Below, in pieces: positions 1 through 64,000 of a DNA stretch of 64,000 nucleotides. Position numbers and translations under genes: made by a program. The number at the start of each line of letters is the position of its first letter. The first letter of the stretch is position 1. Location of the stretch: contig CAVRDU010000005.1 of NCBI GenBank assembly GCA_963719985.1, forward strand, positions 578,817-642,816, read 5' to 3'. This DNA is from Candidatus Aminicenantes bacterium. GTDB lineage: Bacteria > Acidobacteriota > Aminicenantia > Aminicenantales > Saccharicenantaceae. The notes beneath the pieces are model-generated. The model was given only the letters and a program-made list of their open reading frames with translations. It had not been told where the DNA came from and did no database searches.

Positions 1-93
1 TGCCTCATTTTAATACAGGCGCGGGCGCATTTCAATGCGGGCCCTGGGCCGGGATTGACGGGCCGGGAAAGGCCGGGATAAGATGGGCGGGCC

Positions 94-1173
94 ATGACCA
101 CCCGCGAGAGGTTCAACAGGGTCTTCCGCCGGGAGAAGCCGGACCGCGTCCCGGACATGGAGTTCGGCTACTGGGACAAGACGATCGCCGTCTGGCACGA
201 ACAGGGATTGCCGCGGGAGTGCCGGACGAACGAGGACGTCGAGCGCCACCTCGGGCTGGAGGGGATCTCCATCATCCCCGAGGCGCCGATCCACAAGGGG
301 CTCTTCCCGGCGTTCGTGGAGGAGACGATCGAGCGGCGGGGAGACAGGCGCGTCGTCCGGACCAGGGACGGCGCGCTCACGGAGATGCTCGACTACGATT
401 CGTCCATGCCCAAGTTCCTCAAGTTCGCCGTCGAGACGCGGGCCGACTGGGAGAGGCTGAGGGACGAGCGGCTCGATCCGCGGCGCCCGGGGCGGGTCGG
501 CGATGTCGGAGCGGCCGTCGAAGCCGCCCACGCGGCCGGCATGCCCATCCTCTTCCATTGCGGCTCGCTCTACGGCTGGCTCCGGGACTGGATGGGCCTC
601 GAGAACCTGTCCATCGCTTTGATGACCGACCGGGACTGGGTCGAGGAGATGATGGAGCACGTCACCCGGATGGACCTTGAATTCATCGAGCGCCACATCC
701 CGGGCGGCGGCGAGGTCGACGTCGCCTGGTGGTGGGAGGACATGTGCTACAACCACGGCCCGCTCATGTCCCCCCGGCTCTTCGAGGAGCTCATGGTGCC
801 CCGCTACAAGCGGATCACGGACGCCCTTAAGGAGAAGGGGATCCTCGTCAACGTCCTCGACTGCGACGGCCGGATCTACGACCTCGTGCCCGGGTGGCTC
901 CGGGGCGGGATCAACTGCATGTTCCCCATCGAGTCCCTGCACACGGACCCGTGGAAGCTCCGGGAGGACTATAGGGATGAAGTTTTGCTTCTCGGCGGCG
1001 TCGACAAGATGGCCCTGATCGCGGGCCGGGAAGCCATCGACCGGGAGCTCGAGCGGCTCCACCCGCTCGTCGAGCGGGGCGGCTACCTGCCCTGCGTCGA
1101 CCACCGCGTCCCGCCGGACGTCACCTACGAGAACTACCTCTACTATCTGGAGAGAAAGAAGGCCATCCTCTAG
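94..1173 (+). CDS. Uroporphyrinogen decarboxylase (URO-D) family protein, possibly methyltransferase-associated
   Basis: 359 aa ORF with URO-D-like fold signature (MTTRERFNRVFRREKPDRVPDMEFGYWDK...). Ends with a conserved C-terminal block. Confidence 0.55.
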   Translation: MTTRERFNRVFRREKPDRVPDMEFGYWDKTIAVWHEQGLPRECRTNEDVERHLGLEGISIIPEAPIHKGLFPAFVEETIERRGDRRVVRTRDGALTEMLDYDSSMPKFLKFAVETRADWERLRDERLDPRRPGRVGDVGAAVEAAHAAGMPILFHCGSLYGWLRDWMGLENLSIALMTDRDWVEEMMEHVTRMDLEFIERHIPGGGEVDVAWWWEDMCYNHGPLMSPRLFEELMVPRYKRITDALKEKGILVNVLDCDGRIYDLVPGWLRGGINCMFPIESLHTDPWKLREDYRDEVLLLGGVDKMALIAGREAIDRELERLHPLVERGGYLPCVDHRVPPDVTYENYLYYLERKKAIL

Positions 1174-1181
1174 GACCGCGC

Positions 1182-6601: not shown

Positions 6602-8063
6602 ATGGCCGAAGAAGCACCCAAGCCGACCCCGTCACCGGCGCCGAGCGCGCCCCAGTCCCCCGCCGCCGGCCGACCGCCCAAGCTCGCCGTCGCCCTGATC
6701 CCGCTCATCTCCATGGCCCTGCTCCTCGGCGTCGGCTACGGCGTTTACAAGATCAAGGCCCAGGTCCTCCTCGTCGCCGCCGCGACGATCACCGGCTTCA
6801 TGGGCCTCGTCCTCGGCTTCAAATGGAAGGACATGGAGCGGGGCATCGTCGACAGCATCCACAAGGCCATGCCGGCCATCCTGATCATGCTCTCCGTCGG
6901 CATCCTCGTCGGCGCGTGGATGGCCAGCGGGACGATCCCCATGGTCATCTACTACGGCCTGAAGCTCATCTCGCCCAAGTTCTTCCTGGTCACGGCCTGC
7001 CTCGTCTCGTCCGTCGTCGCTGTCGCCTCGGGCACGTCCTGGGGCACGATCGGCACGGTCGGCGTGGCCTTCATCGGCATCGCCATGGGCCTCGGTATCC
7101 CGCTCGGCCCGGCCGCCGGGGCCGTCGTCGCCGGGGCCTACTTCGGCGACAAGCTGTCGCCGCTCTCCGACATCCCCAACCTGGCCACGGTCATCTCCGG
7201 CTCGAACCTGTTCGACCACATCAAGCACATGATGTGGTCGGCAGTACCGGCCTGGCTGGCCGGCCTGGCCATCTATTTCTTCGCCGGCCTGAAATACGGC
7301 GCGACCGCGGTCCAGTCGGAGACGCTCGACCTCATCCTCACGACCCTCAAGGCCAGCTTCCGCTTCAACCTCCTGCTCCTCCTGCCCATGGCCGTCATCT
7401 TCTATTTCGCCGTGGCCAAGAAGCCGACCATCCCGGCCATGGTCCTGTCCTCCCTCGTCGCGGCCGTCTCTGGCCGTCGTCGTCCAGAAGATCCCGCTGA
7501 CGACCGTGGCCACGGCCATGAACTCGGGTCTGCCGGCCCGGACCGGGGTCGAGCTCGTCGACCGGCTCCTGGCCAAGGGCGGCATGATGAGCATGATGGA
7601 GACCCAGCTCATCGCTTTCACCGCCTTCTCCTTCGGCGGCATCATGCAGAGGACGGGCTGCCTGGCCGTCATCCTGGAACGGGTGATGAAGTTCACCCGG
7701 CACGTCTGGAGCCTCGTCCTGACGACGATCGGCGCGGCCGTCCTCTCGGCCATGATCACCGGCAGCTCCTACCTGTCCATGATCCTGCCGGCCGACCTCC
7801 TGGCGCCGATCTACAAGAGGAAGGACCTGGCCGCCAAGAACCTGTCGCGCATCATCGAGGAGAGCGGGGCCATCATCGTCCCGCTCATCCCCTGGAGCAT
7901 GGCCGGCGTCTACATCACCGGCACCCTGGGCGTCTCGACCTTCTCCTACCTGCCCTGGGCCTTCATGAACTATCTCTCGGTCGCCATGCTGGCCCTCTTC
8001 GGCTTCACGAAGTGGACGATGGCCAAGCGGGTGCGGGAGGACGAAACGCAAGCCGGGAGCTAA
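6602..8063 (+). pseudogene. nhaC: NhaC family Na+/H+ antiporter interrupted by a single-base frameshift (~7470)
   Basis: The N-terminal half (frame of 6602) and C-terminal half (frame of 7506, MATAMNSGLP...) are both clean NhaC homologs. Removing one base near gccgtcTctggcc restores ...VAAVLAVVVQKIPLTTVATAMNSG. Probable indel error. Confidence 0.7.
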
Positions 8064-13418: not shown

Positions 13419-15176
13419 ATGAGAATCCGCCCGATCGCCGCCATCACTTTGTGTCTACTGGCTCTGGGTGTCGCCGGCGCCGCCCCGGCCCCCTCACCCC
13501 CCGCCTCGGGCCAGGCTCAGGCCCATGCCCCCGACCGCCTGCAGTGGTTCCGCGAGGCCAAGTTCGGCCTGTTCATCCACTGGGGCGTCTACTCGATGAT
13601 CGGCCGCGAAGAATGGGCCCGCCAGATCCTTCAGATCCCGCTTAAGGAGTACCAGTACTACGCCGACAACTTCGACCCGGTCGAGTTCGACCCGGACGAG
13701 TGGGCCGCCCTGGCCAAGGAGGCCGGCGTCAAGTACGCCGTCATCACCTCGAAGCACCACGACGGCTTCGCCATCTACGACAGCGCCCACTCCGACTACG
13801 ACGTCATGCGCGCCAAGTACGGCCGGGACATCCTCGGGCCGCTCTCGGCCTCGATGAAGCGGGCCGCGATCCCGCTCGGGTTCTACTACTCGATCATGGA
13901 CTGGCACCACCCCGACTACCTCCCCCGCCGGGCCTGGGAGACGGACCGGACGGCCAAGGGCGCCGACTTCGGCCGCTACATGGACTTCGCCACGAACCAG
14001 ATAAAGGAGCTCGTCGCCAAGTACGACCCGGCCGTTCTCTGGTTCGACGGCGAGTGGGAGCACTCGAACGAGGAGCAGCGGGCCTTCGCCATCGGCGAGA
14101 TGCTGCTCGAGATGAAGCCCTCGCTCCTCATCAACGACCGCCTCTACCGGCGCGAGCCGGGCTACGGCGACTTCGGCACGCCGGAGAACTTCGTCCCGGC
14201 CACGGGCGTCCGCAACCCCGACGGCTCGCCCCGCCTCTGGGAGGCCTGCTACACGATGAACTGGAACGGCTGGGGCTTCAACCGTTACGAGACCGAGTTC
14301 CACAGCGCCCCCCAGCTCATCCGCCAGCTCGTCGAGATCGTCAGCAAGGGCGGCAATCTGCTCCTCAACGTCGGGCCGCAGCCGGACGGCAGGATCCAGG
14401 ACGACTTCGTCGCCCGCCTCCGGGAGATCGGCGTCTGGCTCAAGGCCAACGGCGAGGCTATCTACGGCACGACGGCCAGCGTCTTCGAGCGCCTGCCCTT
14501 CTTCGGCCGGTGCACGGTCAAGGGACAGACCCTCTACATCCACGTCATGGGCTGGCCGAACGACGGCCGGATCCGCTTGCCGGGTCTCCAGACCGACGTG
14601 AAGAAGGCCTATCTCCTGGTGGATAAGACGAAGGCCCTCCCGTTCCGGCGCGCCGGCCAGGACGTCGTCGTGACGCTCCCCGCGCGGGCGTCCGATCCCG
14701 ACGCGACCGTCGTCGTCGTCGAGCTCGAAGGCGAGCCCGTCGTCGAGCCGTACCGGATCGTCCCCGGAGAAGGACGGCCGCGTCGAGCTTCCCAGTTTTC
14801 CTCGCCGATGTTCAGTCCGCTATGGGCCAGCGCGCCTACGTCGACCATTTCCACAAGACGACGATGCTGGCCAACTGGCAGAACGTCAACGACTACCCGG
14901 AGTGGGTGTTCACGACGGCCAAGCCCGGCGACCTACGAGGTCCGGGCCTCCTACGCCAGCATGTGGGGCGGGAAGGCCGGTTACGAGGTCGAGGTCGACG
15001 GCCAGAAGCTCGCCGCCCAGACGGAGTCGTCGCCGAGCGTCTACGTCCCCAAGACGTTCACGGTCGGCACCGTCAAGCTCGAAGCGGGCGAGCACAAGCT
15101 CCAAGTCCGGATCACGTGCGTCACCAACAACCACGCCATGAACCTGGAGAAGGTGGTCCTTGTCCCGGCGAAGTAG
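13419..15176 (+). CDS. Alpha-L-fucosidase (GH29) with C-terminal carbohydrate-binding-like domain; two compensating frameshifts near 14778 and 14935
   Basis: Signal peptide MRIRPIAAITLCLLALG, then GH29 motifs (AKFGLFIHWGVYS, HHDGFAIYDS, WFDGEW). A ~150 nt segment (…VDHFHKTTMLANWQNVNDYPEWVFTTAKPGD) is encoded in another frame and rejoins as YEVRASYASMWGG. Confidence 0.75.
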   Translation: MRIRPIAAITLCLLALGVAGAAPAPSPPASGQAQAHAPDRLQWFREAKFGLFIHWGVYSMIGREEWARQILQIPLKEYQYYADNFDPVEFDPDEWAALAKEAGVKYAVITSKHHDGFAIYDSAHSDYDVMRAKYGRDILGPLSASMKRAAIPLGFYYSIMDWHHPDYLPRRAWETDRTAKGADFGRYMDFATNQIKELVAKYDPAVLWFDGEWEHSNEEQRAFAIGEMLLEMKPSLLINDRLYRREPGYGDFGTPENFVPATGVRNPDGSPRLWEACYTMNWNGWGFNRYETEFHSAPQLIRQLVEIVSKGGNLLLNVGPQPDGRIQDDFVARLREIGVWLKANGEAIYGTTASVFERLPFFGRCTVKGQTLYIHVMGWPNDGRIRLPGLQTDVKKAYLLVDKTKALPFRRAGQDVVVTLPARASDPDATVVVVELEGEPVVEPYRIVPGEGRPRRASQFSSPMFSPLWASAPTSTISTRRRCWPTGRTSTTTRSGCSRRPSPATYEVRASYASMWGGKAGYEVEVDGQKLAAQTESSPSVYVPKTFTVGTVKLEAGEHKLQVRITCVTNNHAMNLEKVVLVPAK

Positions 15177-21415: not shown

Positions 21416-21538
21416 GCCCGCCGGGGGCGGGTTGAAATGGCCCTCCCCTTTCGCATAGAATCTCCCTATCGTGGGCGAGCGGAGAGCTTCCGACGTCCGT
21501 CCTCGAGCCGCCCCGAATCGCGGGACAGGAGGGTATCC

Positions 21539-22483
<945 letters not shown>

Positions 22484-22496: not shown

Positions 22497-23774
22497 TATG
22501 AGCACGACAACGGACTGACGCGCAGGGACTTCATCAAGACGGCCTCGGCGGCCTCCATGGCCGCGCTGGTCGCGGGCGTTGCGGGCTCGGGCGGGCGCTG
22601 CGCCGCGGGCTCCGACGCGATCCGCGTCGGCGTCATCGGCTGCGGCGGCCGGGGCACGGGCGCGACCATCGACGCCGTGAACGCCGCCCCCGGAGTCGAG
22701 ATCGTGGCCCTCTACGATCCCTTCCAGGACCGTGTCGACAGCTGCCTCAAGCGGCTCCGGGAGAAGGTCCCGGACGCGGTCAAGGTCACGCCGGAGACGT
22801 GCTTCACCGGCCTCGACGGCTACAAGAAGCTCCTGGCCATCAAAAAGATCAACTATATCGTCACGGCCGCACCGCCCGGCTTCCGGCCCCTCCACCTCGA
22901 GGCCGCGGTCAAGGCCGGCAAGAACGTCTTCATGGAGAAGCCGGTCGCCGTCGACCCGGTCGGGGTCCGCTCCGTCATCGCCAGCTCGGAGCTGGCCGCG
23001 AAGAAGGGACTGGCCATCGTCGCCGGCACCCAGCGCCGCCACCAGCAGAGCTATCTCGAGACGATGAAGCGCGTCCACGACGGGGCCATCGGCGAGATCG
23101 TCGGCGGGCAGTGCTACTGGAACCAGGGCGACCTCTGGGTCATCAAGCAAACCCCGGAGATGAGCGACATGGAATGGCAGTGCCGCAACTGGCTCTACTT
23201 CACCTGGATCTCGGGCGATCACATCGTCGAGCAGCACGTCCACAACATCGACGTCATGAACTGGGCCTTCAACGCGACGCCGGTCAAGGTCATGGGCATG
23301 GGCGGCCGCCAGGTCCGGACGGCCCCCGAGTACGGCAACATCTTCGACCACTTCGCCGTCGAGTTCGAATACCCGAACGGCGCCCGTGTCATGAGCATGT
23401 GCCGCCAGACCAAGGGCTGCGCCGACCGGGTCGAGGAGAAGATCGTCGGGACCAAGGGCCACGCCTTCGGCTACGGCGAGATCTCCGGGCCGAACGCCTG
23501 GAAGTTCGAGGCCGAGGAGGCCAATCCCTACGTCGTCGAGCACACCGACCTGATCGCCAGCATCCGGGACGGGAAGCCCATCAACGAGGGCAAGCGCATC
23601 GCCGAGAGCACGCTCTGCGCCATCATGGGCCGGATGAGCGCCTACACCGGGCGGGCCATCTCCTGGGAGTGGGCCATGAACGCCTCCAAGCTCGACCTCT
23701 TTCCGGCCAAGCTCGAGTTCGGGCCGCACCCGGTCGATCCGGTCGCCGTGCCCGGCACGACGCCGCTCGTCTGA
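22497..23774 (+). CDS. TAT-exported Gfo/Idh/MocA family oxidoreductase
   Basis: GGAG then ATG (MSTTTD), then a 1-nt frameshift into LTRRDFIKTASAAS (TAT signal). Rossmann GVIGCGGRG and GFRPLH... plus the Gfo/Idh/MocA C-terminal domain. 476 aa in the track frame. Confidence 0.7.
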   Translation, partial: YEHDNGLTRRDFIKTASAASMAALVAGVAGSGGRCAAGSDAIRVGVIGCGGRGTGATIDAVNAAPGVEIVALYDPFQDRVDSCLKRLREKVPDAVKVTPETCFTGLDGYKKLLAIKKINYIVTAAPPGFRPLHLEAAVKAGKNVFMEKPVAVDPVGVRSVIASSELAAKKGLAIVAGTQRRHQQSYLETMKRVHDGAIGEIVGGQCYWNQGDLWVIKQTPEMSDMEWQCRNWLYFTWISGDHIVEQHVHNIDVMNWAFNATPVKVMGMGGRQVRTAPEYGNIFDHFAVEFEYPNGARVMSMCRQTKGCADRVEEKIVGTKGHAFGYGEISGPNAWKFEAEEANPYVVEHTDLIASIRDGKPINEGKRIAESTLCAIMGRMSAYTGRAISWEWAMNASKLDLFPAKLEFGPHPVDPVAVPGTTPLV

Positions 23775-42356: not shown

Positions 42357-43726
42357 ATGGGCATCACGGTCAAGAAAGCGGCGGGACGGATCAGCCGCCG
42401 CGATTTCCTCAGGTCCTCGGCCGCGGCCGGGCTCGGCGTCGCACTGTCCGGGCCGGTCTTGTCCCAGGACCCGCCCCCGGCGGCGCCCGCCGCCGCCAAG
42501 TCCGCCGACGAGCTCCGCGTGGCCGTCATCGGCTGCGGCGCCCAGGGCCGTGTCCTCGTCGAGTCGATGCTGCGCGTCCCTTCCGTCCGCATCGTCGCCA
42601 TCGCCGACATCTGGTCCTACAGCCGCCAGTACACCGGCAACTACCTCAAGAAATACGGCCACGTCGCCAACGTCTACGAGGACTTCCGCGAGCTGCTCGC
42701 CGCCGAGAAGGACCTCGACGCGGCGGTCGTGGCGACGCCCGACTGGGTCCACGCCGAGCAGACCAACGCCTGTCTCCGGCGGGGGCTCCACGTCTACTGC
42801 GAGAAGGAGATGTCCAACTCGCTCGACCAGGCCCGGTCCATGGTCCTCACGGCCCGCGAGACGGGCAAGCTCCTTCAGATCGGCCACCAGCGCCGATCCA
42901 ACCCGCGCTACATCCACGCCATCGACCGGCTCATCCGCGAGCGCAACCTCCTCGGCCGCGTCACCGTCGCCTACGCCCAGTGGAACCGGGCCAAGGCCGA
43001 CCTGCTCGGCTGGCCGGAGAGGTACGCCATCGATCAGGCCACCCTCGACAAGCACGGCTACGGCTCCATGACCGAATTCCGCAACTGGCGCCTCTTCAAG
43101 AAGTTCGGCGGCGGCCCGATGGTCGACCTGGGCTCCCACCAGATCGACCTCTTCGGCTGGGTCCACGGGACACCCCCAAGTCGGTCGTGGCCAGCGGCGG
43201 CCTGGACTTCTACAAGGACTGGGAGTGGTACGACAACGTCATGGCCGTCTACGAGTTCGAGACCAAGGCGGGCACGGCCCGGGCCTTCTATCAGGTCCAG
43301 ACGACGACCCAGCACGGCGGCTTCTATGAGACGTTCATGGGCGAGAACGGCTCGCTCGTCCTGTCCGAGATCCCCCAGCGGGGCAACTGGGCCATGCGCG
43401 AGCCGCACGCCCCCGAATGGGACTCCCTGGCCAAGGCGGGCCTCCTCCAGTCCGAGACCGTGCCCATCCAGAAGTCGGCGACCAAGAACATCTATGTCGA
43501 CGTCCGGGTGACGGCCGAAGCGGGACGCTGGCCCCTGCCGGTGGAGCTGGCCAAGCCGGCCCACCAGCCCCATCTCGAGAACTTCTTCGACGCCGTCAGG
43601 AACAGGGCCCTGCTCAATTGCCCGGCCGAGCTGGCCTACGAGTCCTGCGTCGCCGTCCTCAAGACCAACGAGGCGGTCAAGGCCCGGAGGGTCCTGGAGT
43701 TCCGCCCGGAGCAGTTCAAGGCATGA
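42357..43726 (+). CDS. TAT-exported Gfo/Idh/MocA family oxidoreductase, one frameshift (~43168)
   Basis: SRRDFLRSSAAAGLGVAL TAT signal and VIGCGAQGR Rossmann. The C-terminal domain continues in the frame of 42299 (…KSVVASGGLDFYKDWEWYDN…EFRPEQFKA stop). Confidence 0.7.
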
Positions 43727-47913: not shown

Positions 47914-49252
47914 TTATTTCGTCCGCGGAGAGGGCTCGCGCCTGCCGTCGTCGTAGAGGCCGACGAGCTCGACGGCCCGGCCGTCCTTGACCGTGAACTC
48001 GATCCGGAAGTAGTCGAGGCCCTCGACGGCGAACAGCGTGGCGGACATCGGGACGAGCCGGTATTTCGGCCCCGTGCGCTGGTAGTGGAGGGCGCCGTTC
48101 TCCACCGTGACCTTGCGCTCGCCGTAGACGCCGGCGTAGCTCTTCAGTGTCGCCTCATCGAGGCGCCGCGGGACCTTCTTGGCCCTCTCTGCGGCCAGGA
48201 TCCACTCGTATTCGGCCTTCCGGGCGGGATCGGTCGCCTTGGCGGCCAGCTTCTCGACGGCCATCGCGTAGGCCCGGTCGAACGCCTCGGCGGCGGGGAC
48301 GTCGATATCGGGCGAGACGCCCGTGCCTTCCCAGTTCGTCTTGGAGTAGGGGTTGATGGCCCGGGCGAAGGGGACCCGGAGGACGAAGTCGCGCTGGACG
48401 ATCCTCGTCGCCGTCGGGTGCGCGCCGCCGCCGGTCGTCTCGCCGATGACGGTCGCCCGCTTGAGGTTCTTCATGTTGTAGGTGAATTCCTCGGCCCCCG
48501 AGAAGGTCCGCGAGCTCGTCAGGATGTAGAGGTCGGCGCCGGAGGCCCGGGGCCCGGGGACGTAGGGCAGGGTCCAATAGTGCTCGGTCCGATCCGCGGC
48601 CCGGGCGTAGAGGTCGTTGAGGTGGACCGGCTCGTCGAAGAAATAGGTGCTGATGAGCTGGATCTGGGCCGGGTCGCCGCCGCCGTTCTGGCGCAGGTCG
48701 ACGATGACGGCGTCGCAGTGGGCCAGGAAGCTCATCGCGGCGATGGCCGTCGGCCCGGCCTGGTCGGGCGAGGCGAACATGCGGAAGTCGATGTAGCCGA
48801 CGTTCCCCGCGAGGCGCTCGACCTTGCGGAAGCCGAAGTTGTTCCGCCGGGCCTCGAGGTCCCGGCGCGCGCGGACCTTGGCCGCCTCCTCCTCGCTCTG
48901 GCCCTGGAGACGCCTCATGTCCTCGGCCAGGGCCGGATTGTAGGCGAAGCCGATGTGCCCGTCCTTGCTGACCATGGAGAGGACCGTCGAAACGGCCTGG
49001 GCGAAGGCCGGGGCGGTAGCGGCCTTGTCGAAGCTCCCGCTCTTGAGCTGAGCGCGCAGGGCCTCCTCCATCTTCTTGGCCGTGTCGGCGAAGACGTATT
49101 CCCTGTTGAGGAGCGCCGAGACTTCGTCGACGATGGCCTGCTTGCCTCGCGGCGTCGAGGGCCGGCGCCGCCGCCTCCTGGGCGAATACGGTCCCGGCCC
49201 CGAAGGCCAGAATGGCGATGACGATGACGGTATCGCGGAGCGTCTTGGACAT
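47914..49252 (-). CDS. S41 family peptidase (C-terminal processing/tail-specific protease-like), one frameshift near the signal peptide (~49190)
   Basis: Signal peptide MSKTLRDTVIVIAILAFGAGTVFAQEAAAP in the frame of 49252. The rest is in the frame of 49071, with S41 blocks (ILTSSRTFSGAEEFTYNMKNL, GETTGGG). Confidence 0.7.
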
Positions 49253-52825: not shown

Positions 52826-54691
52826 CTACGAGACGATGATGATGGCCTCGCCGGCGACCGCGTCGAACTTGCAAACCTCGTAGCAGGAGCGGCACTTGAT
52901 GCACTTGCTCTGGTCGAGGTTGTGCGGCTGCGAGCGGGGGCCGGAGATGGCCTTGGTCGGGCAGACCTTGACGCACATCTGACAGCCCGTGCAGCGGTCG
53001 GGGATGATCCGGAAGGTGACCAGCTCGCGGCAGACGGTGGCCGGACACCTCTTGTCGACGACGTGGGCGATGAACTCCGACCGGAAATACCGGAGCGCCG
53101 TCAGCACCGGGATGGGGGCGGTCTGGCCAAGCCCGCAGAGCGAGCTCGCCCGGACGATCTCGCCGAGCCGCTCCAGCTTGTCCAGGTCCGCTTCCGTCCC
53201 CCCGCCCGTGGCGATCTTGTCGAGCAGGCCCACCATGTGGCGCGTGCCGACGCGGCAGGCCACGCACTTGCCGCACGATTCGCCCTGGACGAAGGACAGG
53301 AAGGTCCGGGCGGCGTCCACCATGCAGGTCTCCTCGTCCATGACCATGATGCCGCTCGAACCCATGATGCCCCCCGCTTCCGTGAGCGAGTCGAAGTCTA
53401 GCGGGGTCTCGATCTTTCCTCCCGGCAGGAACCCTCCCGACGGACCACCGATCTGGACGGCCTTGAGGCCCTTCTTGTCGGGGATGCCGCCGCCGATCTC
53501 GTAGATCAGCTTGGAGAGGGGGGTCCCCATGGGGACCTCGGCGACGCCGGAGTTGGAGACCTTGCCGGTGAGCGAGACGACCACGGTCCCCGGGCTTTTC
53601 TCCGTGCCGACGGAGGCGAACCAGGCCCCTCCCCGCGAGACGATCGGCGGGACAGAGGCCAGGGTCTTGATGTTGTCGACGACCGTCGGCTTCCCCCAGA
53701 GGCCGCTCGTCGCGGGAAAGGGCGGCCTGCTTCGGGGCATGCTCCGCGCGCCTTCGAGGGAGCTCAGGAGGGCCGTTTCCTCTCCGGACACGAACGTCCC
53801 CCCGCCCTGGAAGATCTCGACATCGAAGGCGAAACCCGTGCCCATGACCCGGGCCCCGAGATAGCCCTTCCCGTAGGCCTGATCGAGGGCCGCCTGGGCG
53901 CGCCGTGGCGGCCAGGGAGTACTCCGCGCGGCAATAGATGAAGCCCCGTTGGACGCGCCGACCGCGTAGCCGAGAAGGGCCAGCCCCTCGATGACCGAGT
54001 GCGGGTCCGCCTCGAGCAGGCTCCGGTCCATGAACGCGCCCGGCGAGCTCTCGTTGGCATTGCAGATGACGTATTTCTCGTCGCCGGGCTGACGGCGGCA
54101 GAGGTCCCACTTGACCCAGGTCGGGAACCCCGCCCCGCCGCGGCCACGCAGGCCCGCGCGCTTGACTTCGTCGACGACCCGCTCCGGCGTCATGGACGTC
54201 ACGGCCTTCTTCAGGCCGCCATACCCTCCCCGCTCCTCGGCGTCCTCGATCCGCTCGGGATTGACGAAGCCGCAGTTGCGCAGGATCAGCCGATACTGGT
54301 TCTTGTAAAAAACGATATCCTCGTAGCGGGGCACGGCCTCCTTGGTCACCGGGTGGCGGTAGAACAGGCGCTTGACCGGCTCCCCGCCGGGCCGGAGGGA
54401 CGCGGCGATGTCTTCCGCGTCGCCGGGCTTCACCTGGCAGTAGAAGATCCCCTCCGGCTCGACGACCACGATCGGCCCCTTCTGGCAGAAGCCGTGGCAG
54501 CCCGTGAAGCCGACCTTCACCCTGTCTGCGAGGTTCAGCCGGCCCACGGCGGCCTCGAGGCCGGCGCGGATCTCGGCCGACTTAGAGGAGGCGCAAGCCG
54601 TGCTTTCGCAGACAAGGATCCTCGTCGTCGCGGCGGCCGCCTTCGGCCGCGCCGCGGACTGCCCGGAGGCCTTCGGTCGACGGGCGCTCAT
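52826..54691 (-). CDS. NuoF-like NADH-binding flavoprotein subunit (HndC/HydB type: N-terminal 2Fe-2S thioredoxin-like domain, FMN/NADH domain, C-terminal 2x[4Fe-4S])
   Basis: Motifs GRGGAGFPT, GEETALLSSLEG, ESCGKC plus a C-terminal CxxCxxCxxxCP ferredoxin pair. The start MSARRPK overlaps the nuoE-like stop. A compensating frameshift pair lies near 53890 to 53920 (GFIYCRAEYSLAA in an alternate frame). Confidence 0.8.
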   Translation of the reverse strand: MSARRPKASGQSAARPKAAAATTRILVCESTACASSKSAEIRAGLEAAVGRLNLADRVKVGFTGCHGFCQKGPIVVVEPEGIFYCQVKPGDAEDIAASLRPGGEPVKRLFYRHPVTKEAVPRYEDIVFYKNQYRLILRNCGFVNPERIEDAEERGGYGGLKKAVTSMTPERVVDEVKRAGLRGRGGAGFPTWVKWDLCRRQPGDEKYVICNANESSPGAFMDRSLLEADPHSVIEGLALLGYAVGASNGASSIAARSTPWPPRRAQAALDQAYGKGYLGARVMGTGFAFDVEIFQGGGTFVSGEETALLSSLEGARSMPRSRPPFPATSGLWGKPTVVDNIKTLASVPPIVSRGGAWFASVGTEKSPGTVVVSLTGKVSNSGVAEVPMGTPLSKLIYEIGGGIPDKKGLKAVQIGGPSGGFLPGGKIETPLDFDSLTEAGGIMGSSGIMVMDEETCMVDAARTFLSFVQGESCGKCVACRVGTRHMVGLLDKIATGGGTEADLDKLERLGEIVRASSLCGLGQTAPIPVLTALRYFRSEFIAHVVDKRCPATVCRELVTFRIIPDRCTGCQMCVKVCPTKAISGPRSQPHNLDQSKCIKCRSCYEVCKFDAVAGEAIIIVS

Positions 54692-55158: not shown

Positions 55159-55182
55159 GTCGTCTCCTCTCAGGGGCCGGCC

Positions 55183-57276: not shown

Positions 57277-57277
57277 G

Positions 57278-58703
57278 TCATTCCTGGCCCGTCAGATACT
57301 TGTGGATGGAGGCGGCGGCGATCCGGCCGTCCCCCATCGCGCTGATGACGGTGGCCGCCCCTCGGACGACGTCCCCGCCGGCCCAGACCCGGGCCCTGGA
57401 CGTCAGGGCGGTCGGCGGGATCGGTCGCGAGCCCGCCCTTCTTGCTGAGCTCCAGCCCCTGCGTCGTCATCGGGATGAGGGGATTGGGGCTGTTGCCGAT
57501 GGCGATGACCACGGCGTCGGCGGGCATGAGGAACTTCGAGCCCTTGACGGGGACCGGCCGGCGGCGGCCCGAGTCGTCCGGCTCGCCGAGCTCCATCTCG
57601 CAGGCACTCCATCTCCTTGAGCCAGCCGTGCTCGTCGCCGATGAGCCGGACGGGCAGCGTGAGGAGGTCGAAGATGACCCCCTCCTCCTCGGCGTTCTCG
57701 ACCTCCTCGAGGCGGGCGGGCAGCTCCGTCCGGCCGCGGCGGTAGACGAGGTGGACCTCGTCGGCGCCGAGGCGCAGGGCCGTGCGGGCGGAGTCCATGG
57801 CCACGTTGCCGCCGCCGACGACGGCCACGCGGGCGGGCTGCTTGACCGGCGTGTCGTACTCGGGGAACCGGTAGCCCTTCATCAGGTTGCACCCGGGTGA
57901 GGTACTCGTTGGCCGAGTAGACGCCGTTGAGGTTCTCGCCCGGGATCTCCATGAACCAGGGCAGCCCGGCGCCCGCGCCGACGAAGACGGCGTCGAACTC
58001 CTCGAGGAGCTCGTCGACCGTCCGGGTCTTGCCGACGATGTAAGTCCATCTCGATCCTGACCCCCAGCGCTCTGCACGTAGTCCACCTCGCGGCTGACGA
58101 TGCTCTTGGGCAGCCGGAACTCGGGGATGCCGTAGATCAGGACGCCCCCCGCACTCGTGCAGGGCCTCGAAGATCGTCACGTCGTGGCCGAGGATGAGCG
58201 AGGTCGTTGGCCACGGTGACGCCGGCCGGCCCCGCGCCGACGATGGCCACCTTCTTGCCCGTCTTCGGGGCCAGCTTCGGGATCTCGATCTTGCCCCGTT
58301 CGGCCTCCCAGTCGGCCAGGAAGCGCTCCAGCCGGCCGATGGCGACGGGCTCGCCCTTCTTGCCCAGGACGCACATCTTCTCGCACTGCTCCTCCTGGGG
58401 GCAGACGCGGCCGCAGATCGCCGGCAGGGCGTTGGTCTCCTTGATCTTCCGGATCCCCGGCGGCGAAGTCGCCCTCGACGATGCACTGGATGAAGCCGGG
58501 GATGTCGATGCCGACGGGACAGCCCTTGTTGCACAGCGCGGCTTCTTGCAGTCCAGGCAGCGCGAGGCCTCCTCCCGCGCCGTCGCGACGGGATAGCCGA
58601 GGGCGACCTCGTCGAAGTTCTTGACCCGCTCGTAGGGGTCCTGCTTCGGCATGGGCCGCCGCAGGAGGTCCAGCTTCTTCTTGGTCGTCTGTTCGTCAGC
58701 CAC
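57278..58703 (-). CDS. GltD/SfrB/NfnB-like NAD(P)H-dependent FAD/FeS oxidoreductase (glutamate synthase small-subunit family), at least 4 frameshifts
   Basis: GTG start after GGAG (…TTKKKLDLLRRPMPKQDPYERVKNFDEVALGY). Fragments in three frames include CLDCKKPRC, EEQCEKMCVLGKKGEPVAIGRLERF, KKVAIVGAGPAG, RVAVVGGGNVAMDSAR and the C-terminal …AMGDGRIAAASIHKYLTGQE. Confidence 0.6.
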
Positions 58704-58740
58704 TTTTCGCTCCCTTCTCCCGCGAGGCGCGCGCCCCGGC

Positions 58741-59578
58741 TCAGAAGTGCGAGGCGCAGCTGCTCCGGCGCAGCGGATCGACCTCTTCGGGATTGTAGCT
58801 CTTGCGCCGGGCCAGGAACTCTCCCAGTCGATCTCGTGCCCGTCGAAGTCGGGCCCGTCGACGCAGGCGAACTTCATCTTCCCGCCGACGGACAGCCGGC
58901 AGACGCCGCACATCCCCGTCCCGTCGATCATGATCGGGTTCATGTTGACGATGGTCTTCCAGCCCAGCGGCCGGGTCAGCTCCGACGTCCGCATCATCAG
59001 GAACGTGCAGCCGTTGACGATGATCAGGTCGGGGGCGATCCCGGCCGCCGCCAGCATGTCCGGCATGTCGCCGATGTGCCCCTTCTGGCCCTTCGTCCCG
59101 TCCCGCGTGGCGACGAACAGCCCGTTCGGACGTCGCGGCCAGCTTGTCCTCCCAGTAGAGCAGAAAGGCTCCGCGGGCCTCGAGGAACGTATAGACCGTG
59201 TTGCCGGCCTCCTTGAGGGCCCGGGCGACGGGGTAGATGCGAGCCGATGCCGTAGCACCCGCCGACGCACAGGACCGTCCCGAAGCTCTCGATCTCGGCG
59301 TGCTCTTGCCGAGCGGCCCGGCGTAGGTCGGAATGGTCTGGCCGGGCTTCAGGCGGGCCAGCTTGGCGGTCGAGGCGCCGACCTGCATGAAGATCGACGT
59401 CACCGTCCCGCTCTCCCTGTCCCAGTCCGCGACCGAGAGGGGGATCCGCTCGCCCTGGTCGTCGGGGCGGACGATGACGAACTGGCCCGGCTTGACGGAC
59501 CGGGCCACGGCCGGCGCCTCGAACGGTGAGCTCGTGGAGGTTCGGGACGATCATGCGCCGCTCGATCACCTCATACAT
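58741..59578 (-). CDS. NfnA/SudB/PyrK-like FAD-binding electron-transfer subunit with C-terminal [2Fe-2S], at least 3 frameshifts
   Basis: MYEVIERRMIVPNLHELTV start. Fragments include VKPGQFVIVRPDDQGERIPLSVAD, YPVARALKEAGNTVYTFLEARG, TGMCGVCRLSVGGKMKFACVDGPDFDGHEIDW. Confidence 0.55.
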
Positions 59579-59613
59579 TCCAGCCTCCCTCCAGCGCCCG
59601 AAGGGGCCCGCGC

Positions 59614-62098
59614 TCAAGCTCCATGACGCGCCACCTTGACGCGGGCCGGGTTCTCCCCGAGGCGGACGAGCGGCCGCAGCCCGCTCCGGCCTTCGAGACC
59701 TCCCCAGACGACCGGCCGCGCGAGGTACACGACTCCCCGGGGGCACTCCTCGTCCGCCCTGACGGCGCCGACGCCGCCCGGCCGGCCGCCGTCGGGCGAC
59801 AGGGCCGCCAGGTCGCCGGCGCGGAGGCCCAGGGCTTCGAGGTCCTGGGGGTTCATCCTCAGTCCTTCTTCGAGGGCCAGCTCTTTGAGCCCCCCGACCT
59901 TGGACGAAAGGTCGACGCCCCGATGACGGTAGCCGGAGGGGGCCGCGACCAGCAGGAACTCCCCCTCACCGGCGGTCGCGGGCTCCGACCTCGATCCCGC
60001 GGCGGCGCCGTCCGCCGAAAGCCGGCGCGGCCTCCGGTTGATCCCGGCCGGGAATCCGGGGACCGACCGGCGGATGTCCTTGAAGACGTCCCGGGGCGAC
60101 TTGTAGTTCATCAGGTGACAACCCATGGCGTTGGCGAGGTCGGAGAAGATCCTCCAATCCGGCCGCATGAACCCGTTCTGGGGGCTCTCCGGCTGGTCCT
60201 CGATCCTGACGACCTCCTGGACGCGGCCCTCGAGATTGACGAGGGTCCCGCCGGCCTCCGCGAAGGACGCGGCCGGGAGGAAGACGTCGACCGGGAACGG
60301 CGGAAGGTAGGTGTCCTGGACGATCAGGAGATCGCAGTCGGGCCTTTCCGGGAACGGGACGTCCCCGACGAGATAGAGGACCTTGGGCCGCGGCGAGGCG
60401 GCGAGGAGGCCGTCGAGCCCGGCCGGGACCTTGTCCTGATAGAGCCCCAGCTCGAGGGCCCCGCGAGCGTTGGCCCCGAAATAGAGAGGGATGACATTCG
60501 TGTTCTTGCGCTTCGCGAGCGTCCTCAGGCCTTCGACGAGCGCGTCGGTCGCTCCGTAGTGGAACGCTTGGGGCCCGACGATGACGGCCAGGCGGTCGCT
60601 GGAAGCGAGGACCTTCGCGGCCCTGTCGAGGGAGGACGCGTCGACGCGGGCGTCCTTGGCCGCGGCCGCGAGAGAGGTCTTCCCGTCCTTCCCGGCCGAC
60701 GCCAGCGCTCTCAGGAGCGACCCCTCCCGGCCGGGAAGGGGGCGCAGCCAGTCGTCGGTGTAGCGGGCCAGGTTGCTGTCCCTGGGATCGATGGTGACCA
60801 GCCGCGCGCCGGCGTTGATGGCCTGCCTGACCTTCGTCCCGACCACGGAGAAGTCGAAGCGGCTGTCGAGCCCGACGGCCAGGATCGTGTCGGCCCGGAG
60901 GATGTCCTTGATGGAGACCGGCAGGGAGAACAGCCACGTCCAGAGGCCCGGGCCCCCGGGAAGCTCCAGCCGGGCCGTGGAGTCGACGTTCTCCGAGCCC
61001 AGGCAATCGCGGACGAACTTCCGGGCGGCGAACAGGCTCTCGTTGGTGAGGTCGGGCGAGACGAGCATGGTCATGCCGCCGGGACCGGCCGCTTGGAGCT
61101 CGCCGGCCACTTTGGTCAGGGCCTCCTCCCAGGCCACCTCCCGGAAGAACTCGCCTTTCTTGAGCATGGGCTTCCGCGCCCGGCTGAAATGGTGCGTCGT
61201 CTCGGGAAGGCCGAAGCGGCCCTTGACGCAGAGCTGCCCGTCGTTGACCTCCGGGTCCAGGTGGGCCTTGACCCGGGTCAGTCGGCCGTTCTTGTGGTGG
61301 ACCTCGATCTGGCAGCCGACGGCGCAGATCGGGCAGGTCGAGACGTGGACCCCGTCCGACTTCCCCTCCCACTTCGAGGCCTTGTCCGAGAGGGCGCCCG
61401 TCGGGCAGACGTCGACGCAGGCGCCGCAGAACTCGCAGCCCGCTTCGATGTGGCTCCGGCCGAAGGCCGGCCCGATCTTCGTCTTGGAGCCGCGCTGGGT
61501 GAAGGCCAGGACCGCGGTGCCGCGGACCTCCTGGCACATCCGGACGCACCGGCCGCAGAGGATGCAGATGTTGTAGTCCCGGTCGTAGAAGGGGTCGTCG
61601 TGCTCCGGCTCGAAGCCGTGATACAGGATGGGGTAGTCGAAGTCCGCCGAGGCCGACGCGGTCGATGACGTCCTGCAGCTCGCACTGGCCGTCGTTGGGG
61701 CAGAAGCGGCAGCCCGTCGTCACGCCCGTCTTCCGGATGGTCCCCTGGTAGGTTCGGCAGGCCTCGCTCTCGTCGCAGATGAGGCAGCTCGAGGGGTGCT
61801 CGCTCAAAATGAGCTTGAGCATCTCCTGGCGGAACGCCCTGAGCGCGTCCGTCTCCGTCCGGACCTTCATCCCCTCCTCGGCGGCCGTGGTGCAGGACAG
61901 GGGATAGCCGCGCAGCCCCTCGATCTCCACCATGCACAGCCGGCAGCCGCCGAACGGCGACAGGTCCTTGTGGGAGCACAGGGAGGGGATGGAGACGCCG
62001 TTGATCTCGGCCGCGCGGAGGACGGTCACGCCTTCGGGGAAGGGGACGGTCCGCCCGTCGATCTCCATGGTGAAAGTGCGAGGTTCGCGGAGAGCCAT
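59614..62098 (-). CDS. NuoG/SfrA-like subunit: N-terminal 2Fe-2S and 4Fe-4S domains plus molybdopterin-oxidoreductase (MopB) domain with Glu at the formate-dehydrogenase Cys/Sec position; one frameshift (~61655)
   Basis: MEIDGRTVPFPEGVTVLRAAEINGVSIPSLCSH… (2Fe-2S), CVRMCQEV…CEFCGACVDVCPTGAL, and the MopB Fe-S motif CPICAVGCQIEVHH…VNDGQLCVKGRFG. The aligned VDNCARxU/CH block reads VDSTARLELPGG. Confidence 0.7.
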
Positions 62099-62141
62099 GG
62101 TTCACCCTCGTCGGTTGGGATGCGGGGTCACGGGCGCGATC

Positions 62142-62468
62142 CTATCGGACCCCGAGCTCGTAGAGGCTTTTGGCCAGCGTCCAGGTGTCCTTGTCGTACC
62201 CGAGAAGCCGGATCTTGGCCCGGTTGGCCAGGGCGACGACGTCTTCGGGAGGGACCTTGCCCCGGGCGTAGACGACGGCGGAGACATCGACCAGGTTGGC
62301 CGCGGCGATCAGGTTCTTGTGGGTCTGCAGGGTGACGAGGAGGTTCCCTTCCTTGATCCCGATGATGTCGCTGACCATGTCGGAGATGTAGACGCCCCGG
62401 ATCTCCTTGTCGCTCTGCTCGTTGAATGTCTTGAGGCCCAGCCGTTGGACGAGTTCGGAAGTGTTCAT
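62142..62468 (-). CDS. DRTGG domain protein (second copy)
   Basis: 108 aa (MNTSELVQRLGLKTF…LLVTLQTHKNLIAAANLVDVSAVVYARGK). Confidence 0.7.
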   Translation of the reverse strand: MNTSELVQRLGLKTFNEQSDKEIRGVYISDMVSDIIGIKEGNLLVTLQTHKNLIAAANLVDVSAVVYARGKVPPEDVVALANRAKIRLLGYDKDTWTLAKSLYELGVR

Positions 62469-62496
62469 GTGGATCCTATCCCTTCATTGTTTATTA

Positions 62497-63024
62497 TTAA
62501 TAGAGCTCCGTCAGGCCGACGTCCGCGAGGACGATGCCCTGGCACGAATCCACTGACCGCCGGAGCCGGCAGGGGACGACCTTGATCCGCCGCGGCTCCC
62601 GCGGCCCTCCCTGATAGTATTCGTTGAGGGCCCGGATGCCCGCCTCCGGGACGCATGTCTGGGACGCGTGCGAGGTGTCCGCGCACAGGGCGACATAGAC
62701 CCACGCCCTCTCCCCCTGTTCGAGCTCGGCGGCCTTGGAGACGCCGCACTCCGGGTCGCAGCGAACGCAGAGCATCAGGGCCATGAGCTCCTTCAGCGGC
62801 ACGACCTGGCCGCACGCGTCGCACCGGAGGTCGAACTTGGTGGCCTGGGCGCTGCCGAGGTAGTTCCAGAAATGGTCCCCCTCGTGGTAGGACTCGATGG
62901 GCGGGACAGGCTCTCCCGAGAAAAAGGAGATCCGGTTCAGGCAGTGATAGCACCCCTCGGTGACCAGGTATCCGTCGCGGATATCGGCCATCGCCCACTT
63001 ATGACGGCAGACGGACTCGTTCAT
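62497..63024 (-). CDS. Hypothetical Cys-rich (multiple CxxC) protein at head of redox operon
   Basis: 175 aa with motifs C6, CYHC, CDAC, CVRCDPEC, C…C. No family recognised. Confidence 0.45.
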   Translation of the reverse strand: MNESVCRHKWAMADIRDGYLVTEGCYHCLNRISFFSGEPVPPIESYHEGDHFWNYLGSAQATKFDLRCDACGQVVPLKELMALMLCVRCDPECGVSKAAELEQGERAWVYVALCADTSHASQTCVPEAGIRALNEYYQGGPREPRRIKVVPCRLRRSVDSCQGIVLADVGLTELY

Positions 63025-63220
63025 GGGGACCGCACCTCTCTAGGGAAATCCCGGGTCCGGAAGGCGGTCGAAGCGAGACCGGCCGCGACAGACCTGTCCA
63101 CCGCCTTCATTTTCCCCTGTCATACGTCATCAGACCTCGTTCTCGACTCGGCCTGGTCGTTACGTTTGGGCGCACTATACCATCGGGCCCGAATCCCTGT
63201 CAACGATTTTTGGCCGGCGG

Positions 63221-64000
63221 TTATCGAGCTCTGACGAGCAAGATGAAGGCGGCGGCCAGGGCCAGGGCGAGGGAGCCGGCGACGATCTTCCAGAGAGGGG
63301 CCCGCCGCCGCTTCTCGTCCTCACGGATCTCCATGACCGAGCCCAGGAGGAAGCCCGCGGCGAAGCCGCCGGCGTGGGCGAAGTTGTCGGCCCGGACGAA
63401 GAGCCCGAAGACGAAAGCGTAGAGGGCCCAGCGGAGCATGAAGGCCCGGATGTCCCGGCCCCGGGCGCTCCCCTCGCGGCGGTAGTAGGCGACGGCGAAC
63501 CCGATCAGGCCGAAGATGGCCCCCGAGGCGCCGGCCGAGACGACCCGCGCGTGGAGAAGATAGGAGGCCGCCGATCCGCCCAGCCCCGAGAGCATGAACA
63601 ACGAAAAATACCGGGCCGAGCCGATCTCGGCCTCGAGGAAGCTCGAGACGCTGAGAAGGGCGTAGAGGTTGAAGAGGACGTGGATGACCCCGATGTGGAC
63701 GAAGACGCACGTCAGGAGCCTCCACCACTCCCCCGCGGCCACGAGGCGCGTTTCCAGGGCGCCGGCCCGTACGAGCGACTCGAGGCCCGGAGAGAGGAGC
63801 GCCCTTCCGCCCGAGGACGTCACCTGGAGGAGGAAGCCGATCCCGATGAGGGCGGTGAGCAGGGCGGTCACCGGGGAGACGCCGGGCATGATCAGGCCGA
63901 AGACCCTGTAGAGGAACTGCCCCGCCGCGGACGGCAGCCGGGCCCCGCAGATGGCGCACCGCTTATCGCCGGCCCCGGCCAGGGCGCCGCATTTCCGGCA
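63221..64000 (-). CDS. Rhomboid family intramembrane serine protease with N-terminal zinc-ribbon; 5' end beyond window
   Basis: GASGAIFG (GxSG) and AHAGG (His) motifs with multiple TM helices. The in-frame upstream sequence CRKCGALAGAGDKRCAICGARL continues to the window edge. Confidence 0.75.
   Translation of the reverse strand, partial: CRKCGALAGAGDKRCAICGARLPSAAGQFLYRVFGLIMPGVSPVTALLTALIGIGFLLQVTSSGGRALLSPGLESLVRAGALETRLVAAGEWWRLLTCVFVHIGVIHVLFNLYALLSVSSFLEAEIGSARYFSLFMLSGLGGSAASYLLHARVVSAGASGAIFGLIGFAVAYYRREGSARGRDIRAFMLRWALYAFVFGLFVRADNFAHAGGFAAGFLLGSVMEIREDEKRRRAPLWKIVAGSLALALAAAFILLVRAR

What the first reader, a model, noticed from the sequence alone, without database searches (positions are those of the whole stretch)
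1..64000. Pervasive single-base frameshifts (about 25 in 64 kb)
At least 14 genes are split across frames by 1-nt indels: nhaC, the fucosidase, the TIM-barrel isomerase, four Gfo/Idh/MocA genes, pbpC C-terminus, the S41 peptidase, nuoF-like, gltD-like, nfnA-like and nuoG-like. In each case the flanking sequence has perfect family conservation and compensating pairs lie close together. This pattern fits uncorrected long-read assembly error, not decay. It matters for any functional inference here, notably for the redox operon.
Basis: seen in the sequence. Interest (0 to 1): 0.6.

Follow-up and report, generated by a model that had tools for sequence, protein, structure and literature searches.

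The report
Assembly-error frameshifts, not gene decay
About 32 tiny extra or missing bases break 12-14 otherwise well-conserved genes in this Aminicenantes contig, and every test points to consensus errors of a long-read metagenome assembly, not real gene loss, so the genes should be treated as intact.

Summary
I map 32 frame-disrupting indels (a 33rd is possible) in 12 genes, or 13 if gfoA is counted. Each is private to this sequence and absent from every related locus that covers it, up to 74 of 74. Stitched reading frames give single full-length family hits above curated cut-offs. Restored frames contain no stop codons. The most broken genes (gltD-like with 9 events, nfnA-like with 5) have the lowest or typical dN/dS in their operon (0.11 and 0.19). 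So this is not decay.

There are 29 insertions against 3 deletions. The events are not enriched at homopolymers. They are strongly clustered, with 14 in 2.1 kb. Two thirds look like two synonymous third-codon-position bases written in tandem.

The decisive control used the same pipeline on related loci. It finds 0 private frameshifts in 319 kb of short-read-style loci. It finds 32 in 81 kb of Nanopore-only Microflora Danica MAG loci, with the same insertion bias (28:4), the same tandem-base fraction (18/27) and the same clustering.

Verdict: an artefact of long-read metagenome consensus. No reads were available, so the proof is comparative rather than direct.

The parts
6602..8063 (+). nhaC (Na+/H+ antiporter) with one +1 insertion at 7469 (GTC[T]CTG)
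   Evidence: The stitched protein matches TIGR00931 at 476 bits (cut-off 370) in one stretch, 4-449 of the protein to 7-452/454 of the model. All 74 of 74 covering relatives lack the base.
13420..15176 (+). alpha-L-fucosidase-like gene with three +1 insertions (14761-14768, 14789-14794, 14929). They sum to +3, so the ORF stays open but about 54 codons are garbled.
   Evidence: (26/26 refs). The N-terminus and start at 13420 were checked and are intact.
21437..22483 (+). TIM-barrel AP_endonuc_2 / hydroxypyruvate-isomerase-like gene with four +1 insertions (22078, 22089, 22206, 22322) and one -1 deletion (22404)
   Evidence: (7-8/8 refs). The orthologue in L056 is an intact 313 aa protein.
22498..23774 (+). 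gfoA (Gfo/Idh/MocA). The body is intact. The ATG at 22498 has a good RBS but is out of frame with the body, so there may be a 33rd event (-1 or +2 between 22501 and 22512), or the start may be an alternative in-frame ATG at 22470.
   Evidence: Not resolved.
23852..25170 (+). gfoB (Gfo/Idh/MocA, glycoside 3-dehydrogenase-like) with +1 insertions at 24418/24419 (CG[C][G]ATC) and 24902/24903
   Evidence: The stitched protein is 94% identical to intact 438-445 aa proteins. 4/4 refs lack the bases.
27278..28454 (+). gfoC (Gfo/Idh/MocA) with a +1 insertion at 27833
   Evidence: (2/2 refs).
30745..33085 (-). pbpC with a net +1 at about 30784-30789, which puts the last 14 codons (RFQVVSPARRGGR*) in another frame
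   Evidence: Single reference, L057.
42357..43726 (+). gfoD (Gfo/Idh/MocA) with a -1 deletion at 43174 in a C run. This is the only event in a clear homopolymer.
   Evidence: tblastn with the L056 orthologue switches frame at 43175-43178.
47914..49252 (-). S41 peptidase with a +1 insertion at 49144, between the signal peptide and the mature part
   Evidence: (2/2 refs).
52826..54690 (-). NuoF-like subunit with +1 at 53906 and +2 at 53950. The ORF stays open but about 15 residues of the FMN-binding region are garbled.
   Evidence: (11/11 refs).
57278..58712 (-). gltD/NfnB-like NADPH-dependent glutamate-synthase-type subunit with eight +1 insertions (57414, 57598, 57889, 58041, 58068, 58144, 58198, 58457) and one +2 (58543)
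   Evidence: The stitched protein matches TIGR01316 at 574 bits (cut-off 472) in one stretch, 18-458 of the protein to 2-449/449 of the model. It is 90% identical to intact 471 aa proteins. 35-36/36 refs lack the bases. dN/dS is 0.109 with no stop codons.
58741..59580 (-). nfnA-like FAD/NAD-binding subunit with -1 at 58822, +1 at 59125, 59239 and 59521, and +2 at 59298
   Evidence: The stitched protein matches NF004862 at 294 bits (cut-off 220). 35-37/37 refs lack the changes. dN/dS is 0.185.
59614..62068 (-). NuoG/formate-dehydrogenase-like subunit (Fer2_4, NADH-G_4Fe-4S_3, Molybdopterin) with a +1 insertion at 61647-61649
   Evidence: (31/31 refs).
57414..59521 (.). Dense error cluster: 14 events in 2.1 kb
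   Evidence: In 20,000 random placements the maximum was 9 events in any 2.2 kb. Median spacing is 221 nt against 1375 nt simulated.

Best explanation
The frameshifts are consensus errors of a long-read metagenome assembly, most probably Nanopore-only. They are not mutations of the organism. The window comes from an uncultured Candidatus Aminicenantes population. In the real genome the 12-13 affected genes are almost certainly intact.

Shown here: the events are private to this sequence, they leave no evolutionary trace, and they match in four respects (density, direction, codon position, clustering) the private frameshifts of known Nanopore-only MAGs. Short-read assemblies of the same gene clusters have none.

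Inferred: the proximate mechanism. Most events look like two alternative synonymous third-position bases written one after the other, for example CGC/CGG giving CGCG. This is what a consensus or polishing step produces when reads from co-assembled micro-diverse strains are aligned as insertion plus deletion instead of as a mismatch, at modest coverage. On that view clusters mark stretches where such heterogeneity, or recruitment of reads from related populations, is highest. I put about 0.4-0.5 on this sub-mechanism. The alternative is a C/G-context insertion bias of the basecaller or polisher at low coverage.
For: Private to the window: 0 of up to 74 relatives share any event.

Intact function signal: stitched nhaC, gltD-like and nfnA-like score 476, 574 and 294 bits against cut-offs of 370, 472 and 220, each as one contiguous match. 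Stitched gltD-like and gfoB are 90% and 94% identical to intact full-length proteins.

No decay: dN/dS is 0.109 and 0.185 in the two most broken genes against 0.14-0.29 in intact neighbours, and restored frames have zero stop codons.

Spectrum: 29 insertions against 3 deletions, p 2.6e-6; no homopolymer enrichment; strong clustering.

Controls: 9 Nanopore-only MFD MAG loci carry 32 private events in 80.7 kb, 28:4 insertions, also clustered. These MAGs were made with Flye --meta --nano-hq and one round of Medaka (PMC12313526). 28 short-read-style loci carry 0 events in 318.9 kb.

Tandem synonymous third-position doublets: 17/25 in the window and 18/27 in the MFD loci, against 0.375 for simulated random insertions (p 0.002 each).

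Precedent: nearby allelic variants cause INDEL errors in collapsed long-read assemblies (PMC8445201). Nanopore consensus indels cause frameshifts, more so at low coverage (PMC9262707; PMC8103633).
Against: No reads, coverage or quality values are available, so the errors are not shown directly.

The sequencing platform of the window is unknown, and the source record was not found in the collections.

The signature is not the textbook one. Published residual long-read errors are mostly homopolymer indels, and in high-GC PacBio assemblies mostly G/C deletions (PMC8574707; PMC9262707).

The tandem-allele idea was formed after seeing the data. A plain bias towards inserting a C or G next to another C or G would raise the null from 0.375 to roughly 0.5 and weaken the test. 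Four or five events have the same form at two-fold codons, where the doublet is non-synonymous.

The event rate in the window (0.72/kb in well-covered parts) is somewhat higher than the MFD average of 0.40/kb (p 0.03).
Confidence: 0.9

Rival explanations
1. Real, very recent pseudogenisation: a lineage undergoing gene decay that has fixed about 32 frameshifts in 64 kb.
For: The frameshifts are really in the sequence. Some genes carry many, as old pseudogenes do. The densest cluster coincides with one gene pair.
Against: Restored frames have zero nonsense codons, and dN/dS in the most broken genes is as low as or lower than in intact neighbours. Family scores of stitched proteins are full length and above cut-off. 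GC3 of about 0.95 is kept in every fragment. The 29:3 insertion bias, with no event longer than 2 nt, is opposite to the deletion bias of bacterial pseudogenes (own knowledge: Mira, Ochman and Moran 2001). Core energy-metabolism and transport genes are hit. The same signature appears in Nanopore MAGs of unrelated phyla and never in short-read MAGs.
Confidence: 0.04
2. Classical homopolymer-length errors of long reads, the specific form the first reader proposed.
For: A few events can be placed in short runs: 43174 (C5), 58144 (C6), 58457 (C4), 14765 (C4). The literature describes homopolymer indels as the main residual long-read error.
Against: A homopolymer of >=4 lies within 3 nt at 6/32 events against an 11.6% background (p 0.16), and one of >=5 at 2/32 against 3.3%. 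Most inserted bases differ from both neighbours. Insertions dominate, whereas deletions are what is reported for high-GC genomes.
Confidence: 0.05
3. The insertions are real and are read through by a recoding mechanism, such as pervasive programmed +1 frameshifting or quadruplet decoding.
For: Nearly all events are +1. The downstream frames remain perfectly conserved. Many extra bases sit right after a third codon position.
Against: There is no shared slippery or stimulatory motif. The 'quadruplets' involve at least eight different codon families. No motif is enriched. No orthologue in 137 loci has a frameshift at any of the sites. +2 and -1 events are mixed in. Most genes of the window have none. 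The pattern tracks the sequencing technology of the assembly.
Confidence: 0.01

Closest known systems
Frameshift-causing indel errors in Nanopore-only metagenome-assembled genomes (e.g. the Microflora Danica long-read catalogue, PMC12313526; Sereika et al. 2022, PMC9262707; PMC8103633)
   Same: The events are private single-base indels that fragment conserved genes. Density is 0.4-0.7 per kb. Direction is the same (28:4 and 29:3 insertions). Clustering is the same, and so is the fraction of third-position tandem doublets.
   Different: The literature stresses homopolymers. Here, and in the MFD loci I examined, most events are non-homopolymer insertions. The platform of the window itself is not known.
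INDEL errors created when allelic variants are collapsed in a long-read consensus (Trypanosoma brucei Lister 427, PMC8445201)
   Same: These are apparent frameshifts in otherwise conserved genes that arise where nearby variants cause misalignment in a collapsed consensus. That fits the tandem synonymous-allele look of 17/25 events.
   Different: That case is a diploid eukaryote sequenced with PacBio. Here the heterogeneity would be strain micro-diversity in a metagenome, and it is inferred, not observed.
Systematic PacBio indel errors in high-GC genomes (ARAMIS, PMC8574707)
   Same: Both concern a high-GC genome with several indels per gene and truncated predicted proteins.
   Different: There, more than 70-99% of errors are in homopolymers and are mostly G/C deletions. 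Here they are insertions outside homopolymers.
Genuine pseudogene-rich bacterial genomes (e.g. Mycobacterium leprae; own knowledge)
   Same: Many genes are interrupted by frameshifts.
   Different: Real decay also brings nonsense mutations, larger deletions and relaxed constraint. None of these is seen here.

Membership tests
Long-read metagenome consensus artefact | The indels are private to the assembly and absent from all close relatives. | tested here: met
   0 of 2-74 covering references share any event. All 80 nhaC relatives and the 120 listed gltD and 120 listed gfoB homologues are in one frame or full length.
Long-read metagenome consensus artefact | Rate and spectrum match assemblies of known long-read origin and differ from short-read assemblies. 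| tested here: met
   Nanopore-only MFD loci: 32 events in 80.7 kb, 28:4 insertions. Short-read-style loci: 0 events in 318.9 kb. Window: 25 clusters in 34.5 kb, 29:3 insertions.
Long-read metagenome consensus artefact | The indels are concentrated in homopolymers (the classical description). | tested here: not met
   6/32 events lie near a run of >=4 against an 11.6% background, p 0.16.
Long-read metagenome consensus artefact | The extra bases are absent from accurate reads, and the sites have low coverage or mixed alleles. | not testable with these tools
   No reads or coverage are available, and the source record was not found.
Collapsed-allele (micro-diversity) consensus error | The insertion forms a tandem of two alternative alleles at a likely polymorphic (synonymous third-position) site. 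| tested here: inconclusive
   17/25 events in the window and 18/27 in the MFD loci, against 0.375 simulated (p 0.002 each). However, a C/G-context bias would raise the null to about 0.5, and 4-5 events are non-synonymous doublets.
Genuine pseudogenes / gene decay | Relaxed selection (raised dN/dS) and nonsense codons accompany the frameshifts. | tested here: not met
   dN/dS is 0.109 and 0.185 in the most broken genes. Restored frames have 0 stop codons.
Genuine pseudogenes / gene decay | Deletion-biased indel spectrum with mixed lengths. | tested here: not met
   29 insertions against 3 deletions, all 1-2 nt.
Programmed frameshifting / recoding | A conserved shift site and motif shared by orthologues. 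| tested here: not met
   No orthologue has the shift. There is no common motif.

The most novel reading that the evidence does not exclude
The extra bases are really in the DNA of this Aminicenantes population, and the genes stay functional through pervasive +1 recoding (quadruplet-like decoding right after third codon positions). Alternatively, the population is caught in the first moments of massive gene inactivation. A milder methodological reading is more likely (about 0.4). It says that the main residual error of Nanopore-only MAGs from micro-diverse communities is a tandem-allele insertion at synonymous polymorphic sites, not a homopolymer slip.
Probability: 0.02. Interest if true: 0.85.

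Novelty: not a real feature. Interest (0 to 1): 0.1.

Why it matters
The finding has practical rather than biological importance. Gene callers will split or garble 12-13 genes in this window. Some ORFs stay open but carry nonsense stretches: about 54 codons in the fucosidase and about 15 residues in the FMN-binding region of NuoF. Pseudogene counts, completeness estimates and metabolic reconstruction of the NuoEFG/NfnAB-type redox operon would therefore be wrong unless the frames are restored.

The comparison also shows that public Nanopore-only MAGs that serve as species representatives carry the same kind of private frameshifts, at about 0.4 per kb in these loci. Most of those are non-homopolymer insertions next to third codon positions, which homopolymer-focused quality checks would miss.

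Tried and rejected
- Exact-protein look-ups for two window proteins, to find the source or an independent assembly, returned nothing on record. No relative is closer than 82-95% amino-acid identity, so no same-population comparison was possible.
- Rfam and tRNA scans, to see whether RNA genes are also damaged, found no RNA genes in the window.
- A self-similarity search, to test whether error clusters sit in intra-window paralogues, found only two weak 44-167 nt matches, so it was uninformative.
- Placing each extra base from DNA alignments alone was too noisy among 75-85% identical references.
- A first protein-guided placement was wrong, because open off-frames in this high-GC DNA matched each other. 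It was redone with the frame fixed by GC3.
- Methylation-type motifs near the events (GATC, CCWGG, CCGG, GCGC, CGCG, GGCC) are not significant. GATC is at 7/32 events against 10.9% background, p 0.053.
- A suspected extra frameshift in the fucosidase N-terminus (13393-13464) was rejected. It is length variation in the signal peptide, and the start at 13420 is in frame.
- A suspected argR C-terminal shift was rejected. The ORF 39043-39528 is intact.
- A PacBio-type explanation was rejected as the specific source, because the published high-GC PacBio residual errors are homopolymer deletions.
Full report
**What the window is.** The window has 68% G+C and a third-codon-position G+C of about 0.95, so the reading frame can be read directly from base composition. 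A Viterbi segmentation into six frames plus non-coding shows many switches between frames on the same strand. These occur with no room for a gene boundary. They are densest at 57.3-59.6 kb on the minus strand. Relatives fetched with a NuoG-like protein identify the organism as an uncultured Candidatus Aminicenantes bacterium. The closest genome locus, L001 (RBG_16_66_30, a scaffold-named MAG I treated as short-read on the basis of its contig naming; its sequencing platform was not checked), is 82% identical in protein and 84% in DNA over 10.4 kb, in the same gene order. Exact-protein look-ups and all homology searches failed to find the source record or any same-population assembly.

**Checking the observation.** I gathered 137 related loci:
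- 55 around the redox operon;
- two syntenic contigs around the Gfo/Idh/MocA cluster;
- 80 around nhaC.

For every blastn alignment to the window I recorded places where the running insertion-minus-deletion offset changes by a non-multiple of three between stable stretches of at least 24 columns. Events fall into two classes. Some are seen against only a subset of references; these lie at gene ends, in intergenic DNA, or are private to a reference. The rest are seen against essentially all covering references. There are 32 in this second class, and they are listed under the observation check. They lie in nhaC, the fucosidase, the AP_endonuc_2 TIM-barrel gene, three Gfo/Idh/MocA genes, the pbpC C-terminus, the S41 peptidase and the NuoF-, GltD-, NfnA- and NuoG-like genes. 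A fourth Gfo gene (gfoA) has its well-placed ATG at 22498 out of frame with the body. That may be a 33rd event.

Concatenating the fragments restores single, full-length family matches above curated cut-offs:

| Stitched gene | Family | Score (bits) | Cut-off (bits) |
|---|---|---|---|
| nhaC | TIGR00931 | 476 | 370 |
| gltD-like (ten fragments) | TIGR01316 | 574 | 472 |
| nfnA-like | NF004862 | 294 | 220 |

The stitched gltD-like and gfoB proteins are 90% and 94% identical to intact 471-aa and 438-445-aa proteins from many metagenomes. tblastn confirms the frame switches in gfoD and at the pbpC C-terminus.

**Real decay or artefact.** Using the DNA alignment to L001, I compared codons in the restored frame.
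- The two most damaged genes have 92% and 90% amino-acid identity, and dN/dS of 0.109 and 0.185.
- The intact genes of the same operon range from 0.14 to 0.29.
- No restored frame contains a stop codon.

Fourteen independent indels in 2.1 kb with no excess of replacement changes and no nonsense mutation are not what a decaying gene looks like. The spectrum is also wrong for decay: 29 insertions against 3 deletions (p 2.6e-6), and none longer than 2 nt. From my own knowledge, bacterial pseudogenes are deletion-biased.

- *Homopolymers.* The events are not enriched at homopolymers: a run of >=4 lies within 3 nt at 6/32 events against an 11.6% background. Alignments to the closest references show that most inserted bases differ from both neighbours, for example GTC[T]CTG at 7469, CCGG[C]GAC at 14929 and AGAT[G]CGAG at 59239.
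- *Published profiles.* In high-GC PacBio assemblies the residual errors are mostly G/C deletions in homopolymers (PMC8574707). Nanopore consensus errors are usually described as homopolymer indels (PMC9262707).
- *Clustering.* Median spacing is 221 nt against 1375 nt expected. Fourteen events fall in 2.2 kb, where 20,000 random placements never gave more than nine.
- *Frame restoration.* Where the frame is restored (fucosidase, TIM barrel, NuoF), it is because insertions sum to +3, not because +1/-1 pairs compensate. As a result, ORFs stay open but carry garbled stretches.

**A technology control from the reference set.** Some references had private frameshifts of their own, and nearly all of these were 'MFD...bin' loci. 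Those are Microflora Danica long-read MAGs, assembled from Nanopore reads only with Flye --meta --nano-hq and one round of Medaka (PMC12313526). I applied the same automatic rule to each locus in turn, requiring an event to be supported by at least 80% of at least four covering sequences.

| Sequence set | Private events | Span tested | Rate per kb | Insertions : deletions |
|---|---|---|---|---|
| 9 Nanopore-only MFD loci | 32 | 80.7 kb | 0.40 | 28: 4 |
| 28 short-read-style loci | 0 | 318.9 kb | 0 | none |
| This window | 25 clusters | 34.5 kb | 0.72 | 23: 2 (29: 3 among the 32 mapped events) |

The MFD events are also unevenly spread: 10 each in L034 and L049, none in three loci, and eight within 1.4 kb in L049. 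The Nanopore-only loci come from Aminicenantes, Thermoleophilia, Actinomycetes and a deltaproteobacterium. A shared biological cause is therefore implausible, and a shared technical cause is the simple reading.

**How the errors probably arise (inferred).** I placed each extra base with the help of the reference proteins, fixing the frame by GC3. Seventeen of 25 single-base insertions then appear as two different bases in tandem at a third codon position, either of which gives the same amino acid. Examples are CG[C][G] (Arg) at 24418/9, where relatives carry CGC or CGG, and GT[G][C] (Val) at 22206/7, where relatives carry GTC or GTG. Six hundred simulated random insertions give this pattern 37.5% of the time (p 0.002). 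The Nanopore-only loci, examined after the idea was formed, show 18 of 27 (p 0.002).

This is what a consensus produces when reads carrying two alleles are aligned as insertion plus deletion and both columns pass the vote. A related effect, allelic variants causing INDEL errors in a collapsed long-read assembly, has been documented (PMC8445201). It would also explain why clusters sit in the most conserved genes, where reads of related populations can be recruited.

The case is not closed.
- A plain tendency to insert C or G next to another C or G in GC-rich DNA would raise the null to about one half.
- Four or five events have the same form at two-fold codons, where the doublet is not synonymous (27833, 58068, 22322, 49144).
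- No methylation-type motif is enriched.

**Consequences and verdict.** The finding is an assembly artefact. It is of practical importance for annotation and of little biological novelty. Its homopolymer and compensating-pair details do not. Direct confirmation needs the reads.

Noticed in passing
L034, L049, L046, L027, L041, L007 (whole loci; events listed): Public Nanopore-only Microflora Danica MAGs that serve as GTDB species representatives carry their own private frameshifts in this operon. There are 32 in 80.7 kb, 28 of them insertions, mostly outside homopolymers and next to third codon positions. 28 short-read-style loci have none.
   Followed up: yes
window 52826-63031 (minus strand): A conserved redox gene cluster. 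It comprises a small Cys-rich protein with no Pfam hit (62503-63030), DRTGG, a NuoG/formate-dehydrogenase-like molybdopterin subunit, NfnA-like, GltD/NfnB-like, a second DRTGG, HATPase_c, a HydS-like protein (partial Fe_hyd_lg_C plus a putative Fe-S domain), NuoE-like and NuoF-like. Relatives of its NuoG-like gene were recovered in 55 loci titled Aminicenantes, Planctomycetota, Thermoleophilia, Actinomycetota, Desulfocapsaceae and others. Gene order was checked only in the closest one (L001).
   Followed up: partly
window 30723-42176 versus L056 10849-13320: In the JGI contig L056 the second AP_endonuc_2 gene is followed directly by gfoD. In the window an 11.5-kb block sits between them: pbpC, a 1,854-aa alpha-2-macroglobulin, argR, argG and argH. 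L057 has pbpC and A2M at the same place as the window. This looks like an insertion or deletion polymorphism among close relatives.
   Followed up: partly
window 12340-13400: This stretch has weak coding periodicity and lower G+C (0.65). It contains a minus-strand ORF (12634-13182) with a DUF7669 match (E 1.6e-6). It may be a foreign or atypical gene between the 777-aa protein of unknown function and the fucosidase.
   Followed up: no
window 13360-13419: The upstream region of the fucosidase gene (ATTGACA...GGGATAACCTTGGGCCATCCGTCGAGGAGGAGAGG) is much better conserved among relatives than the signal-peptide coding region that follows. It looks like a TTGACA-type promoter plus a conserved leader and RBS.
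   Followed up: no
window 22322 and 49144: Two unrelated insertion events share the identical 7-mer context AGG[C]AAG on the coding strand. This may be chance or may hint at a k-mer-specific consensus error.
   Followed up: no
window 10007-12337 and 43723-46077: Two large conserved proteins have little or no family assignment. One is a 777-aa secreted-looking protein with no Pfam hit. The other is a 785-aa multi-haem-type protein with only weak Cytochrome_C7/c3 matches, followed by a 239-aa membrane protein. Both are conserved next to gfoD in L056.
   Followed up: no
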